From NCBI GenBank assembly GCA_963702025.1, contig OY969699.1, positions 768,001 to 832,000 of the forward strand: 64,000 bases of DNA. The letters are read 5' to 3'. The stretch's first letter is position 1. Each line of letters opens with the position of its first letter. The position numbers were made by a program. This DNA comes from an uncultured bacterium (GTDB lineage: Bacteria; Babelota; Babeliae; Babelales; Vermiphilaceae). Below, in pieces: positions 24,001-30,000 of this stretch.

Positions 24001-27000
24001 AGCCATCTCGCAACCGATGGGGCAAGAAAAAATTAACATCCGCCCCGAGCGGCAATAAACAGATCATCATTAACGCCGACGAAGTGATACCGTCGACATC
24101 ATAATCCCCAAAAATTAATATTTTTTCTTTATCGGCAATCGCTTTTAAAATGCGGTCCACCGCTTTTTGCGCATCTTTCATCTGCGCCGGATGAGCAACA
24201 TCTTTTTCAAATGAGCTAAATAAAAAAGAATCGATCTGCTCTTTGGTGGTATAGCCACGAGAAAAAAGCAGTTGCGCAATCGGATACGAAATATTATAAG
24301 ATGCAGCAATTGACCAGATTGCATGAGGGTCCCCGTGAGGCATTTTCCAAAGATATTTTGCCCCTCTTATGATGGCCATGCGGATCCTAGCTGAGCTATG
24401 GTAACTAATTTTTTATTATCAGAGCTAAAGATACCGTAATTATACAAAAAAAGAAGTTAATTCATTATGATATCGAACAACATGATAAACATTCAAGCTC
24501 AAGACAAGCGCAATCCATACAACATTGACTATTAGCGCAACGAGTTGCGCATGAATTAGGATCCGGTTGCGTTGTGGCCTCTTCTTGAGCATTAATATCT
24601 TTTGGCGAGGCACTAGATTTATTGTTATCATCCAGAGGAATTTGTGTTAATTTATCGCTTTCTTTAAAAGCTACAATTTTATCTCTATTTTTTTCCATTA
24701 CCTCCTTGCCATTTTGCATAGCGGCACATGAGATAAAGCTCAATATGCATAGTATCGCTAAAATATACTTCATAGAGTTCCCCTTCTTATGAGAGATATT
24801 GATTGAATGACGTTAATAAAGCACTGCAGGCCATACCGGCATTAAATTCGCCCAGTGCCGTCACGCATCGTGCTTGCTGCGGCGTATATGAAAAATTAAA
24901 GGTATCGCACGGACCGGAATTAATGCATGCCTCACTATCAAAATCTTTTAGAATCGAATAGAGCGCAGCATATGCCGGATCATTTTTGTATACTTCCAAT
25001 AAGGCATGATCAACGATTATCGGCACATAAATTACCGTCGGCACTTGTGGATCATCGTCACTAAAAACACTCACCGCATGTTTATCAATATCGGTATAAT
25101 CAATTACGGGGAACGGTAAATTGTTTGCACGAGCATAATTTTCAACATTGCGTAATTCAGCACCAATAGTGCCGGCAGAGGCATCAATAAAAATAATAAT
25201 ATCGGCGTGCCGATCCGGCCGCTGCCCGCTAATAGGTGGGTACGGCAAATTAAAATCGGTACCCGCATCAACAAGCCGCAACACCGGCAATGCGTCACGA
25301 GGAATGCCGGCCATTTGATAAATGCAATTTAAATATTCAGCGGTGACCAGACGATCATTACCATACTTTTGTAGAATCCTGGCAAGAATCGTATGCACTA
25401 ATGCTGATTGCGTGGCATTCATAAGATTTTCATCTTGGAATATCTGCTTAATGGTAGCACCAATTGCCAATCCAAAGGTTCCCAAGAATGTGCCCATAGA
25501 TTGTTCTGGCGCATTGCTAACCGAAAGCCCATTTTTAAATTTTCTACCAAAGGCCCACGTTGGCACATAGGCAGCAAAACGTGAGGCGCCAATTTCATAC
25601 GGCGTAAATTCATACCAAATAGTTTCGGTTTGATTTTCTTCACCGCTCACCGCGGTATAAATAGGCAACGGCAATGAGCCATCGCCAATAGCCGCAACCT
25701 GTTCAGAAAGATGCACACTATTTTTGTTCTTTGCAAAAAGACCAAACAGATTATTAGCAATACAGGCCCCATATAAATCAACAAAGCCAACCGGCTGCCC
25801 CGAACAATATTTGGTTAGTACCACCTCTTCTATGAGTGCAGCATCATCAACAGAAAGACCATCCATGTGAGAATAGATATGGTTAATGAGCCAGTCATGA
25901 AAAAGATCAATAGACATGCCGCTCGATATCCATGATGCGATTGCCCACGTTGACCCTGATAGCCCAACTAAATACGAAACAAGATCAAATGTTCCGTGTT
26001 TAATGAACGCTTTTAAAGCGCCGGTGGTATAGAGCATTGCCCTGTATCCGCCACCACTACAGGCAATAGCAACGCGTGGAATTTTTTGTGATGAAGTATT
26101 AAATCCGTATTTTGTTAATGCCTGGCAAATGTAGGCAAGACGCCGCGTACTCTGATCATATTCGGTCGGCACTAAGCCATTACCGGTGCGCACAAAGGCA
26201 AAAGAATCTTTATACGGATTATTTTTGATTGCCGGCAACCTATCAAAAAGCAGCTCTTCAGCCTTCTGTAGAGGCCCTTGATTGGTGTCCCATTCGGATG
26301 CGGTATAACCATAAACATCATCATCTTCCACCGCAATATAAAAGAGCGCACCTTGATTATTATCAACGGCCAGCCCATGATAGGCATCAACCATTGCCTT
26401 AGACACAGTTTGCGCAAGAAGTGATACATCTTCAACAAACAACAATATCAGTGAATGCCCCCACCATATTTGTGGCCGTTCAATCTCTAATTCTTGATGT
26501 GATTCGATAGAATAAATCGCCGTTACACGATTTGCTGATTGATCAATAAAGGGGATCCACATCCGCTGATCATAAAGCGCAACATGCAAATCGCGCGGCG
26601 TTTGATTATACACACTGATAGTGTCAGAATAAATTCGGATAAATAAGACGAAACTTACGAGTAACAGAAAGTTCGTTCTCTTCATTTTTTTATTCATCCT
26701 TTTGGTATGGAGTTATCCTTTCTTTGGCCAACCCATTTTATATTTTCAATAATCGTATCGATCGCACTGTAACTATTAAGCTCGCCCATGAGCATAACAT
26801 TTTTGGCTTGATCCGATGGGTAGGTAAAGTTTTCACTGGCACACACACCTAGTCTAAAGCAGACATCTATATCAAAACTGGCAAATTGTTGTATTTTAGA
26901 TTTTAAATCAGCGCGTTTCATTTCTAGTTCTTTGAGTGCCTTTTGATCAGCAATTCGCGGCATATAAATAACCACCGGTGCCTTTACATTTTTTGCATCT

Positions 27001-30000
27001 TTAAAAATACTCACCGCTTTTTTCATTACCTGATCATAGGTAATTTTAGGAAATGGTAATTTATGGGAACGTGCATAATCTTCAATAATTTTAAGGCTCG
27101 AAACACGCAGACTTTTTGGATTGGTTGGATCAATGCTTAATAAATTATCTGACGCATCAACGCAAATGAGTATGTCCATATCTCTGCCCGGCCGCTGGCC
27201 ACTCACCGGCTGGTAGGGTAAATTAGAGAATGAAACACCCGCATCGGTTAAACTTAAAAATGGCGCATCTTTAACCGGACTATTTGGCATGTCACGGCTG
27301 AAATTAAGCACCTTTGCTTCAAAGGGGCGATAGGCGCCAATTTGCTCATCAATTTCCATTACAATGTTTTTTGCAAATTGGAGTGGCATTTTTTTCTCAA
27401 GATCTATTTCTTGGAGCATACGCGTAATGCTGGCTCCTAGGGCAAAACCCCAGATTCCCATTAAGTTCCCAAGACTTAATTCCGGCGTGTCGGTACGCAC
27501 CAAATTACCATTGCGGAATTTAGCGCCAAATGCGCGTGCCGGCACATACATGCCAAGCCATGAACCACCCACTTCATACGGCGTAAATTCATACCACATA
27601 TTTTCAACCGCAAGACTTTCAGCTCTCACCGCTGTATAAATTGGCATCGGCAAATGTCCGCTTTCTATAATTCTTGCTTGCTCAGAGAGATGCTGGCGCT
27701 GCTTCATTGCGCCCTGTTTGCCAAAAAAAGTGTTGGCGAGTAATGCGCCATAGAGATCCACCGGGCCAAGGGGTTGCTCAAAAAGGTATTTGGTGATGAG
27801 CATTTGTCCTATCAATGCCGCATCATCAGAAGACACATTTTTTACCCCGTTGGATAATTTGTCTACTATCCAATCACAAAACACCGGCAATGGCACTCCT
27901 GATGAGTACCAAGAGCCTATTCCCCAGGTTGAACCCGAAAGTGTTGCTACATAAATTATGGCATTTAAAACACCCGATTGTTCAAGCGCACGCAAAACGC
28001 CGAGCGTATAAAGCATTGCACGAGTGCCACCGCCGCTCATTACAAGTGCAATTTTTACCGGTTGAGTCAATGAGGTGCCGATCAATTTTTCTTGCGCTTG
28101 TTTAACGCGCGGTAATCGCCGTGCCACATAGGTTTTTTCAGCTTCGGGCAAATCATTGCCCACTCTCACCTGCGCCGGCTGGCCTCTATATGGGTTTTCA
28201 TTAATTGCCGGCAATTGCTTAAACACCAGTTCTTGGGCTTTATCAAGAAGCGCTTTATTAACGTTCCACTCAACCGTGGTATACCCCAGCAGTATTCCTT
28301 CTTTTTCACCAATATAAAAAACATCACCTTGCAGATCGCCCACATTTTTAGAATTAAATTTTTCTTTTACGTCAAAATAGGGCAATTCCGGTTTAAAAAG
28401 ATTTTTGTCTTCCAGAAACACAAGTTCGCGATCATACCCCACTTTGCGTGCCGGACGTTGTACAATGCCCGATGCTTGGCTTTCCACAAATTGTACCGGT
28501 GAGGCAAGCTTTGCCGTTTGATACTCGTTCTCCCACGGCAACTTCATGCGAAGGTAATAGATGCCAACATACAAATCACGCGGCGTTTGGTTATGAACGG
28601 TGATGCGATCGCCGACTTCCGGCGCCATTTTTTGCACCGCCGGTTCTTCTTTGAGCGTAACCGGTGCATACAAGTTCGCAAAATTTAAGAGCGCGAGCGA
28701 GAGTACTATTTTTTTTGCATCCATGACCCTTTTCCTTTCTACAAAAATTTTGCTTCAAATCATACAGTAAAAAACGGGATGGGATAAAGTCAAGCTCCTT
28801 GAATTGAGAGCGAAGAGACTTTGCTTTGGCGATGATTGGAAGTGCCTTCACGTCCGTTCGTGGTGAGTGTTTCGCGTAGCGAAATGTATCGAACCATTTT
28901 TCGAAGCACGTCTCGAGAATTTTTATCTACTTTACTCAAGAAGAGAATTATCATTACAATCTGTTGCAAAGCAGATACAAGAAAAGAAGATGACTCTTGA
29001 ACAGGCTAAAAAAATCTTACCTAATGATCTGCACCAAGAACTGGAAAAGGTGTTAAAAACTCCGTAAGCAACAAACTACCTTTTTCAGGTTAAAATGTTT
29101 GAAAATCCACCCATCTTTAAGCAAATTTTGCTTGAAAATCCAGGCAATTCAAATATCATGTTTGCTTTTTGACCAAAATGTTGTAATTTTATATCTGATT
29201 ATTGACCAAATCTTAATAAATATTGCTTGATTTTTGACCAAAAGGTTCTTATGAAGCGAACTATAGGCTATTATCTTAACCAATGGAAACTTGATAAGTA
29301 TAGAAAACCGCTCTTGCTTCGCGGCGCTCGCCAAGTCGGCAAGACCCATGTGGTTCGAGAATTGGGAAAATCGTATCCCGATTTTGTTGAAATCAATTTA
29401 GAAAAAATACCAAATGCTGAACTTATTTTTGAAAAAGATCTCGAGCCTGAAAGAATTCTGTTTGATATATCTTTAATAGTCGACAAAAAAATTACACCGG
29501 GTGTCACCCTACTGTTTATTGATGAGATCCAAACAGTACCCCGCGCAATCATTGCGCTACGCTATTTTTATGAGATAATGCCAAATCTTCATGTGATAGC
29601 CGCAGGCTCACTGCTTGATTTTGCAATTGAGAAAGTCGGTATTCCCGTTGGCCGAGTTGAATCATTATATATGTATCCAATGTCATTCATAGAATTTTTA
29701 GCGGCCTCTCAAGGAGAATTACTGGTAGAAGAAACAGTTTCTCACGTACTTGAAAAAGAGATGAGTGTCATTATCCATAAAAAATTGCTTGGGCTCTTGG
29801 GAGAATATATTGCCATCGGCGGCATGCCCCAGGCCGTTCAGGTATGGCAAGAAACAAAAGATCCTCGTCAATGCTCAAGAATTCACCATGCAATACTTGA
29901 TACATATCGCCAAGATTTTGGTAAATATGCAAAAAAACTGCAAATTAAATATGTTGAATTACTTTTTGAGCAGATCCCGCTTCAACTGGGAAAAAAATTC

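What a model noticed while it worked through the whole genome (the two positions that open the first line are those of the whole stretch)
24787..28724. Tandem secreted cytosolic-phospholipase-A2-like (PLA2_B) lipases, a hallmark of the order
Two adjacent genes (g00819, 636 aa; g00820, 676 aa) encode signal-peptide proteins whose C-terminal 430 residues are a eukaryotic cPLA2 (PLA2G4) catalytic domain with the GGGxR motif, the GLSGS nucleophile and the DAG aspartate, behind a ~200-residue N-terminal domain of no known family in place of the C2 domain. I read them as exported PLA2/lysophospholipases that attack the amoebal phagosome or vacuole membrane (escape, or lipid scavenging for a cell that makes no fatty acids). 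New would be a bacterial use of the cPLA2 fold proper, kept in most Babelales yet almost absent from all other bacteria.
Evidence so far: pfam.tsv PLA2_B E 4e-33 and 1e-27 (profile 1-334 of 491); Swiss-Prot best hits vertebrate PLA2G4A/E/F/C, 25-35% id, E 1e-26 to 6e-31. Motifs read: SGGGYRAM / SGGGTRAM, GLSGSTW / TLSGSTW, VDAGTDF / TDAGVSF. relatives.tsv: PLA2_B in 7 of 7 genus, 61 of 79 family, 181 of 260 order genomes, share 0.001 of bacteria. Babela and TM6 papers hold no 'phospholipase'.
(Added by a program. Inside this text positions count along the whole contig: contig position 768,001 is position 1 of the stretch shown here. "Call 12" and the like, gene names such as g00115 and contig names such as C1 are that model's own, and its searches are not shown. 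The text may have been shortened before it was handed on; [...] marks where a part breaks off. The agent that wrote the report below was given it as the finding of a first reader that could run no searches.)

Follow-up and report, generated by a model that had tools for sequence, protein, structure and literature searches.

The report
Exported eukaryote-type phospholipases of protist parasites
These two genes encode exported fat-splitting enzymes built like animal cytosolic phospholipase A2; most bacteria of this protist-parasitic phylum carry them, and they probably act on host membrane lipids, which offers a testable handle on how these parasites get and reshape host membranes.

Summary
Observation confirmed. 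Both genes encode signal-peptide proteins with a true group IV cPLA2 catalytic module: Arg/Ser/Asp intact, Z 43 to human cPLA2-alpha versus at most 17.8 to patatins. The family is in 204 of 261 Babelota genomes, often at a conserved lysS-recJ site; no clear holder outside the phylum turned up in a low-sensitivity scan.

Corrections: the N-terminal domain is a mobile ~110-residue beta-sandwich (0-3 copies), not 200 residues. It also heads an unnamed, intron-bearing protist cPLA2 family, a candidate donor or sister; trees do not resolve direction. The gene is not absent from print: supplements of the Babela and TM6 papers list it, undiscussed. It is not a simple stand-in for missing fatty-acid synthesis (46 of 47 FabF-bearing genomes keep it), and Babela grows inside its vacuole, so escape is not general.

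Best reading (0.55): Sec/type-II-exported, calcium-independent phospholipase/lysophospholipase-transacylase that mobilises and remodels host membrane lipid. Activity, export and location are inferred. This scan noted a fused member earlier in another Dependentiae genome, and reported a membrane-split cPLA2-like bacterial family that I could not test. New variant of a known kind; interest 0.6.

The parts
26694..28724 (-). g00820 (P0002), 676 aa, upstream paralog: export signal + beta-sandwich domain + cPLA2 catalytic module
28665..28724 (-). g00820 signal-peptide-like N-terminus (residues 1-20); cleavage site unsure, a Pro follows the obvious site
   Evidence: read from sequence; hydropathy heuristic only
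28272..28610 (-). g00820 N-terminal beta-sandwich domain (about residues 39-151)
   Evidence: profile match
26739..28175 (-). g00820 cPLA2 catalytic module (184-662); GGGTR at 28020-28034, Ser263 at 27936-27938, Asp494 at 27243-27245
24787..26697 (-). g00819 (P0001), 636 aa, downstream paralog, ATGA overlap with g00820 (alternative start Met5 at 26685)
26626..26697 (-). g00819 Sec-type signal peptide (1-24); homologs mostly end it in A-x-A before the conserved D-x-I-T-V
   Evidence: heuristic, no SignalP available
26302..26625 (-). g00819 N-terminal beta-sandwich domain (25-132), transthyretin/CnaB-like arrangement, no Pfam family; mobile module shared with a protist cPLA2 family
26218..26301 (-). 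g00819 linker helices (133-160)
   Evidence: AlphaFold model
24793..26205 (-). g00819 cPLA2 catalytic module with cap (about 165-635); GGGYR at 26041-26055, Ser247 at 25957-25959, Asp477 at 25267-25269; helices 416-445 in the lid position (inferred); Cys591/Cys597 pair
22655..24379 (-). recJ, downstream marker of the conserved locus (context, not part of the system)
30610..32880 (-). lysS, upstream marker of the conserved locus (context)

Best explanation
Both proteins are calcium-independent serine lipases of the group IV cPLA2 fold. They cross the inner membrane by Sec, fold in the periplasm and leave by the type II secretion system (or in outer-membrane vesicles). Outside, the beta-sandwich docks the enzyme on a host-derived membrane or partner, the lid opens, Ser247 attacks an acyl ester (Asp477 as base, GGG-Arg219 holding the oxyanion and phosphate), and the acyl-enzyme is released to water or to a lysolipid. 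The job is to mobilise and remodel host phospholipid around the growing parasite: fatty acids and lysolipids feed the retained acyl-CoA ligase / PlsC / CdsA route where it exists, and the surrounding vacuole or organelle membrane is altered. The family entered Babelota once, early, probably from a protist, and then duplicated and swapped accessory domains. Shown here: fold (predicted model), catalytic residues, distribution, domain architecture, synteny, presence of secretion and salvage genes. Inferred: activity, sn-position, export beyond the periplasm, target, role of the beta-sandwich, direction of transfer.
For: Fold: model pLDDT 93.5; Z 43.0, rmsd 2.5 A over 445 residues to cPLA2-alpha, patatins at most 17.8. 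Arg+Ser+Asp intact in 111 of 114 bacterial rows (not de-duplicated). Signal-like N-termini in 100 of 110 bacterial ORFs against 138 of 1393 internal control segments. G000 encodes two GspD secretins, GspC, PilM/GspL- and GspM-like proteins and two GspE-type ATPases; type II is the only secretion system reported for Babela (PMC4378268). Relatives that fall inside Babelota clades carry a RING finger (P0280) or ankyrin repeats (P0286, P0293), domains that act on eukaryotic proteins; one carries a PLC-like domain (G167). G000 has no ketoacyl synthase, PlsY or PlsX match but has an acyl-CoA-ligase-like enzyme, one PlsC-like acyltransferase and CdsA; the ligase family is in 227 of 261 genomes. C2-less cPLA2-gamma is calcium-independent with PLA1, lysophospholipase and transacylase activity (PMC5485470). 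lysS or recJ lies within the fetched flanks in 35 of 76 loci, across distant protein clades.
Against: No activity, secretion or expression data. The signal heuristic also fires on 855 of 1485 G000 ORFs and was allowed up to three starts per ORF, so it does not single these proteins out, and a Sec signal proves only periplasmic delivery. 57 of 261 genomes lack the family, including all of f6 (0/7) and f8 (0/4), and 42 lack it together with PlsY and FabF, so it is dispensable. It does not track loss of FabF or PlsY (46/47 versus 158/214; 94/109 versus 110/152). Family f5 has it without the ligase. G000 shows no FadL, MlaD or glycerophosphodiesterase match, so the uptake route and the source of lysophosphatidic acid are unexplained. 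The RING and ankyrin fusions are other members, of unnamed origin, not these two proteins.
Confidence: 0.55

Rival explanations
1. The main job is membrane rupture: escape from the food vacuole early, or host lysis late, as patatin effectors do for other intracellular bacteria (ExoU, VipD, Rickettsia Pat1; functions recalled).
For: Chromulinavorax is in the host cytoplasm by 3 h, sheds outer-membrane vesicles in the food vacuole and causes late membrane disarray (PMC6561590); a Chromulinivoraceae-titled record has the gene (L076). Retention regardless of FabF, PlsY or ligase status fits a non-nutritional role. Copy-number expansion (1-5 Pfam matches a genome) and domain shuffling are effector-like.
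Against: Babela has the gene and is described as growing within one vacuole. Host mitochondrial membranes next to Chromulinavorax stay intact. A conserved housekeeping-type locus is unusual for a lytic toxin.
Confidence: 0.2
2. The enzymes stay in the periplasm or envelope and edit the bacterium's own or already incorporated lipids by CoA-independent transacylation or lysolipid removal.
For: A Sec signal alone gives periplasmic location; P0002 has a Pro after its obvious cleavage site and might stay anchored. Family f5 lacks the acyl-activating enzyme yet keeps the gene in 12 of 14 genomes, which a CoA-independent transacylase would suit (PMC5485470). Ancient position among housekeeping genes.
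Against: RING, ankyrin and PLC-like fusions in relatives point to the host side. The same beta-sandwich heads other secreted proteins, such as a Vps62-family protein in G085. 57 of 261 genomes do without it.
Confidence: 0.2
3. The tandem pair is a catalytic plus regulatory couple: one paralog is drifting towards a non-catalytic partner.
For: Translational coupling (ATGA overlap); tandem pairs in most genus relatives; the sister of g00820 in locus L053 is one of three rows lacking a catalytic residue.
Against: Both proteins here keep Arg, Ser and Asp; many genomes have one copy; no binding evidence was sought.
Confidence: 0.05

Closest known systems
Human group IV cPLA2 (alpha, PDB 1cjy; delta, 5iz5/5ixc; Pfam PF01735)
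   Same: Catalytic module with cap, GGGxR, LSGS serine, DxG aspartate; Z 43/38, 25-28% identity in the structural alignment.
   Different: No C2 match; a transthyretin-like beta-sandwich instead; Sec signal; Ser-to-Asp span 230 residues (bacterial median 239) against 277-320 in the animal rows, so the long regulatory loops are missing.
cPLA2-gamma (PLA2G4C)
   Same: No C2 domain, hence expected calcium independence and broad PLA/lysophospholipase/transacylase chemistry (PMC5485470, passages).
   Different: Gamma is intracellular and lipid-anchored (CAAX, myristoyl motif); these have a signal peptide and an extra beta-sandwich. Not compared by sequence here.
Unnamed intron-bearing protist cPLA2 family (P0311, P0368-P0373; loci L130-L133), found here
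   Same: Same beta-sandwich plus compact catalytic module, collinear from column 26 (hhalign probability 100); P0373 matches the bacterial domain profile at 43-45 bits, 900 shuffles at most 7.9; Ser-Asp span 230-239.
   Different: No signal peptide; two have MG..C-rich ends that look like acylation sites (pattern recalled); spliceosomal-type GT-AG introns in L133. Its own clade (100/100), not placed against Babelota with support. Taxon unknown.
Fungal secreted phospholipase B (PF01735)
   Same: Same Pfam family, secreted, C2-less.
   Different: Long separate branch; about 22% identity to the bacterial rows against 29-30% for animal, fungal cPLA2-like and protist rows.
Bacterial patatin effectors (ExoU, VipD, PlpD, CapV/CapE)
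   Same: Ser-Asp dyad, glycine-rich oxyanion loop, shared core fold (Z 11.5-17.8).
   Different: No cPLA2 cap; GxSxG motif; Patatin profile below cut-off for P0002 (18.8 of 27.7) and unmatched for P0001.
Babela massiliensis BAB00763.1 and TM6 'Lysophospholipase_catalytic_domain' orthologs
   Same: Members of this family, annotated in supplements: 'Phospholipase A2, patain superfamily', SignalP count 1, best hit Bos taurus, E 1e-45 (PMC4378268 file 9); 6 of 7 TM6 genomes (PMC4776705 Table S5).
   Different: Table rows only; the searched terms do not occur in the main texts. The Babela protein (533 aa) is a short form.

Membership tests
cPLA2/PLB catalytic domain (PF01735, PLA2c) | Profile match above curated cut-off | tested here: met
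   111.6 and 95.9 bits against 23
cPLA2/PLB catalytic domain (PF01735, PLA2c) | GGGxR oxyanion/phosphate loop, LSGS nucleophile, DxG aspartate | tested here: met
   R219/S247/D477 and R235/S263/D494 align with the cPLA2-alpha motifs; P0002 has TLSGS for GLSGS
cPLA2/PLB catalytic domain (PF01735, PLA2c) | Central alpha/beta core plus cPLA2 cap region | tested here: met
   Predicted model: Z 43.0, rmsd 2.5, 445 aligned to 1cjy; Foldseek E 5e-30
Group IVA/B/D/E/F cPLA2 | N-terminal calcium-binding C2 domain | tested here: inconclusive
   No Pfam C2 match in either protein or in 34 domain sequences; best fold matches are PepT2 extracellular domain (Z 9.0, rmsd 2.6, 84 aligned) and transthyretin/CnaB-like sandwiches; a fold list cannot exclude a family
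Group IV cPLA2 | Cytosolic protein without signal peptide | tested here: not met
   Hydrophobic N-terminal signal in both proteins (heuristic)
Group IVA cPLA2 | sn-2 arachidonate-selective PLA2 activity | not testable with these tools
   Needs enzyme assay
cPLA2-gamma | C-terminal CAAX or N-myristoyl anchor | tested here: not met
   C-termini end NQYLS and SIPKG; N-termini are signal peptides
Fungal phospholipase B | Groups with secreted PLB sequences | tested here: not met
   Two PLB rows form a separate long branch; about 22% identity; only two PLB rows sampled
Patatin (PF01734) / ExoU-VipD-type effectors | Patatin profile above cut-off and GxSxG nucleophile elbow | tested here: not met
   18.8 of 27.7 bits (P0002), no match (P0001), motif is LSGS
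Type II secretion substrate | Sec signal, T2SS in the genome, demonstrated T2SS-dependent release | tested here: inconclusive
   Signal and apparatus genes present; release not testable

The most novel reading that the evidence does not exclude
Babelota captured a protist cPLA2, beta-sandwich domain included, before the phylum radiated, replaced its lipid anchor with a secretion signal and made it the standing machine by which these parasites turn host membranes into their own, in ligase-less families by direct CoA-independent acyl transfer; this would name the missing host-lipid acquisition step for a whole parasitic phylum and define an undescribed ancestral cPLA2 architecture older than the C2-bearing animal form. 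The bolder variant, that eukaryotic cPLA2s came from this bacterial lineage, is not excluded by the trees (about 0.08).
Probability: 0.3. Interest if true: 0.8.

Novelty: new variant of a known kind. Interest (0 to 1): 0.6.

Why it matters
Yeoh et al. (PMC4776705) state that TM6 bacteria lack fatty-acid synthesis, probably exploit host lipids, and that the mechanism is mostly unknown. A secreted cPLA2-fold lipase in about four of five Babelota genomes is a concrete candidate, and cultured members carry it (Babela BAB00763.1; Noda2021 BDC34731.1), so it can be tested. It extends the cPLA2 fold proper, known from animals and fungi, to a bacterial phylum, and ties it through a shared accessory domain to an undescribed protist family, which bears on where group IV PLA2s came from. 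The compact, loop-free, C2-less enzymes are also convenient models of the minimal cPLA2.

Tried and rejected
Viral origin or carriage: two scans of viral contigs confirmed nothing; no tblastn match of P0001 in phage or plasmid records at E 1e-3; the domain model had no viral fold match at E 1e-3 or better. Stand-in for missing PlsY or FabF: rejected by cross-tabulation (kin are not independent, so no statistic is given; FabF alone does not prove full fatty-acid synthesis). C2 identity of the N-terminal domain: no C2 domain among the 50 listed fold matches, no Pfam or PDB sequence match; the Atlas gave unnamed ~100-aa clusters at 0.89-0.91, a lead only. Direction of transfer: four trees leave deep nodes open; the careful mixture-model search did not finish (one search is the quick tree), searches used LG+G4 on reduced sets (34 and 43 rows, long or redundant rows dropped); eukaryotes as one clade was not rejected (p-AU 0.40, 0.33) but was not the best tree either. 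The grouping of L025 with animals did not recur. Core identity barely favours protists (0.299) over fungal cPLA2-like (0.297) and animal rows (0.288), so it does not name a donor. Non-Babelota titles ('Pseudomonadota', 'Epsilonproteobacteria', 'bacterium') were treated as possible outside holders and rejected on RecJ identity and genome size. Weak metagenome hits L158, L159, L161, L163, L165 are patatins. The membrane-split cPLA2-like family of earlier scan notes: my attempt to fetch a member gave a Rhizobium patatin-like protein with a different layout, so that claim stays untested. Promoter and terminator scans were uninformative. No complex prediction was run, as no binding is claimed. Literature: no paper discussing a Babelota cPLA2-type enzyme in searches (open-access library only).
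Full report
1. Observation. The window holds two minus-strand genes at 24787-26697 (P0001, 636 aa) and 26694-28724 (P0002, 676 aa), coupled by an ATGA overlap and 39% identical. Both match Pfam PLA2_B far above cut-off; NCBIfam has no family for them. Among solved structures P0001 matches only human cPLA2-alpha and -delta by sequence. These are the only two copies in G000.

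2. Fold. An AlphaFold model of P0001 from 109 sequences has pLDDT 93.5. It aligns to cPLA2-alpha at Z 43.0 (rmsd 2.5 A, 445 residues) and cPLA2-delta at Z 38.2, while patatins, VipD and ExoU score 11.5-17.8 (Foldseek agrees). So this is the cPLA2 module with its cap, not a patatin. Arg, Ser and Asp are all present in 111 of 114 bacterial rows, which are not de-duplicated; L053, L054 and L044 each lack one. The Ser-to-Asp span is 230 residues (median 239 in 25 bacterial rows) against 277-320 in four animal rows: the long regulatory loops are absent. A Cys591/Cys597 pair is common in bacterial rows (59 and 74 of 114) and may be a disulphide (inference).

3. The N-terminal part. It is a signal peptide, a beta-sandwich of about 110 residues, linker helices, and the start of the catalytic module. 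The domain alone folds at pLDDT 96.6; its best match is the PepT2 extracellular domain (Z 9.0, rmsd 2.6, 84 aligned), then transthyretin-, CnaB- and CBM-like sandwiches at Z 6-7, which may mean only a common arrangement. No Pfam family matches more than 1 of 34 members. It is mobile: absent from many family members, present twice in P0234 and P0262 and three times in P0276, P0279, P0281, P0282, found in 81 of 261 genomes, and fused to a Vps62-family protein in G085. Its function is unknown; by position it replaces C2, and I infer a membrane- or partner-docking role.

4. Distribution. PF01735 is in 204 of 261 phylum genomes (148 of 189 good ones) and 0 of 14 controls; a protein query gives 205. 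Families f6 and f8 lack it. A pattern scan of 185,579 species genomes matched 121 stretches, confirmed 92 and returned the best 80 as 76 loci. I tested 50 of those 76: all lie in genomes of 0.8-1.9 Mb, and 49 have a RecJ match, 47 of them at 52-85% identity in one long piece, as do the eight titled Dependentiae, TM6 or a Babelota family (52-68%), whereas the eight best plasmid-borne RecJ reach 33-39%. The other 26 loci are titled Dependentiae/Babeliales (23) or share a genome with a tested locus (3). So no outside holder was seen, but 12 confirmed stretches were not shown, the patterns lean to Babelota and vertebrates, and the scan found only about 72 genomes where at least 204 hold the gene. 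'Almost absent elsewhere' is therefore plausible, not proven. lysS or recJ lies in the flanks of 35 of 76 loci, many truncated, across distant protein clades, as in this window: the gene looks ancestral to the phylum and vertically kept. The two proteins here are sisters (99/96) when genus relatives are left out, and fall in separate subclades shared with relatives when they are in: the duplication predates the genus members sampled.

5. A protist family with the same architecture. A search from an odd hit (P0311) gave six relatives. They lack signal peptides; two begin with MG and cysteine runs. P0373 matches the bacterial domain profile at 43-45 bits (900 shuffles at most 7.9), P0369 and P0371 weakly (E 0.002, 0.03); the other members tested and Fonticula P0375 did not match. 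Profile-profile alignment is collinear from the domain's first strand. Their DNA looks eukaryotic: L130 and L131 are single-gene contigs with long non-coding ends, and L133, 54-63% identical to P0373, has two GT-AG introns with pyrimidine-rich 3' ends, the first exactly between TVDQ and MFHE. This is the best candidate for donor or sister. The trees do not settle it: protist, animal and fungal cPLA2-like groups are each well supported but sit in a polytomy with Babelota lineages; one eukaryote clade is not rejected (p-AU 0.33; 0.40 without the protist rows), and core identity is nearly equal to all three groups.

6. Export. Signal-like ends occur in 100 of 110 bacterial ORFs, 5 of 24 eukaryotic proteins and 138 of 1393 internal control segments, but also in 855 of 1485 G000 ORFs (crude heuristic). 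G000 has two GspD secretins, GspC, PilM/GspL- and GspM-like genes and two GspE-type ATPases. Relatives carry RING (P0280), ankyrin (P0286, P0293) or PLC-like domains (G167, 1235 aa; PI-PLC-X below cut-off), which points to the host side for at least those members.

7. Lipid metabolism. G000 (95% complete, one contig) has no match to ketoacyl synthase, PlsY, PlsX, FadL, MlaD or GDPD, but one acyl-CoA-ligase-like gene, one PlsC-like gene and CdsA. It needs outside fatty acids and, seemingly, lysolipid. Across the phylum the ligase family is in 227 of 261 genomes, absent from f3 and f5; PlsY in 109; FabF in 47. The lipase is in 46 of 47 FabF-positive and 158 of 214 FabF-negative genomes, 94 of 109 PlsY-positive and 110 of 152 PlsY-negative genomes; 42 lack all three. 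It is thus neither required nor a plug for a missing pathway. Feeding is a likely use in this genome, not the whole story.

8. Mechanism. Best reading (0.55): Sec and type II export of a calcium-independent PLA/lysophospholipase-transacylase that mobilises and remodels host membrane lipid around the growing cell. Rivals: rupture for escape or lysis (0.2), envelope-resident lipid editing (0.2), catalytic plus regulatory pair (0.05). The chemistry follows from established cPLA2 knowledge; cPLA2-gamma is the nearest functional model (PMC5485470).

9. Literature seen. PMC4776705: passages and supplement file 2 (file 1 not searchable); its Table S5 lists a Lysophospholipase_catalytic_domain family in 6 of 7 genomes, and the text calls host-lipid acquisition mostly unknown. 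PMC4378268: passages and nine supplements searched; file 9 annotates BAB00763.1 as phospholipase A2 with a metazoan best hit; the text describes growth in a vacuole and has no 'lipase'. PMC6561590: passages, no 'lipase'; supplements unreadable and may bear on novelty. PMC12172432, PMC12644861, PMC5485470: passages. PMC8812299: whole text; Noda2021 is cultured in Vermamoeba and has homolog BDC34731.1. Subscription papers on Vermiphilus and reviews of the phylum were not seen. Searches listed no study of this enzyme family in Babelota.

10. Earlier scan notes (none by sequence). One describes a PLC-like/cPLA2 fusion of 1235 residues in a Dependentiae genome; I saw such a protein in G167. Seven describe a widespread bacterial cPLA2-like family split by membrane helices; if right, Babelota are not the only bacteria with a cPLA2-related module, only the ones with a soluble, exported, eukaryote-like form. 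I could not test it, and one of those notes is marked as partly fallen.

11. Verdict. Real, phylum-typical, annotated but unstudied. It works like a C2-less group IV PLA2 and belongs to the PF01735 catalytic family, but is not a cytosolic group IV enzyme, a fungal PLB or a patatin. New variant of a known kind; interest 0.6.

Noticed in passing
P0311, P0368-P0373; L130-L133: Unnamed eukaryotic (intron-bearing) cPLA2 family without C2, with the same beta-sandwich as the Babelota enzymes and acylation-like N-termini in two members; taxon unknown.
   Followed up: partly
G000 genome-wide: PlsC-like, CdsA and acyl-CoA-ligase-like genes are kept but no PlsY, PlsX or second PF01553 gene was found; the source of lysophosphatidic acid is unexplained. 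PlsY is missing from 152 of 261 phylum genomes.
   Followed up: partly
Families f13, f16, f18, f19, f21: 47 of 261 Babelota genomes carry a ketoacyl synthase, against the published generalisation from seven genomes that TM6 lack fatty-acid synthesis; the rest of the pathway was not checked.
   Followed up: partly
Families f3 and f5: No AMP-binding enzyme, PlsY or FabF match in 16 and 14 genomes: these lineages may take host lipids whole.
   Followed up: no
L170:4665-8372 (G167): 1235-aa exported fusion: PLC-like domain + beta-sandwich + cPLA2 module.
   Followed up: partly
L172:2914-4899 (G085): Signal peptide + the same beta-sandwich + Vps62-family domain in a genome without the lipase, among ankyrin genes.
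   Followed up: partly
P0280, P0286, P0288, P0293: Family members fused to a RING finger or ankyrin repeats.
   Followed up: partly
window 30610-32880: The lysine-tRNA ligase (756 aa) has an N-terminal extension of about 270 residues with a weak match to the PheT B3/4 region, a possible editing domain.
   Followed up: no
window 24465-24773: 102-aa ORF 13 bases downstream of g00819 with a signal-like start and a cysteine-rich end, no Pfam match.
   Followed up: no
window 22308-22565 and L033:977-1372: Small ORFs that resemble DUF433 and addiction-module antidote proteins (resemblance recalled, not scanned); PMC12644861 found its Babelota genomes devoid of toxin-antitoxin systems.
   Followed up: no
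L045:4958-5503: In one close relative the upstream paralog is reduced to a 182-codon frame holding only the beta-sandwich domain.
   Followed up: no
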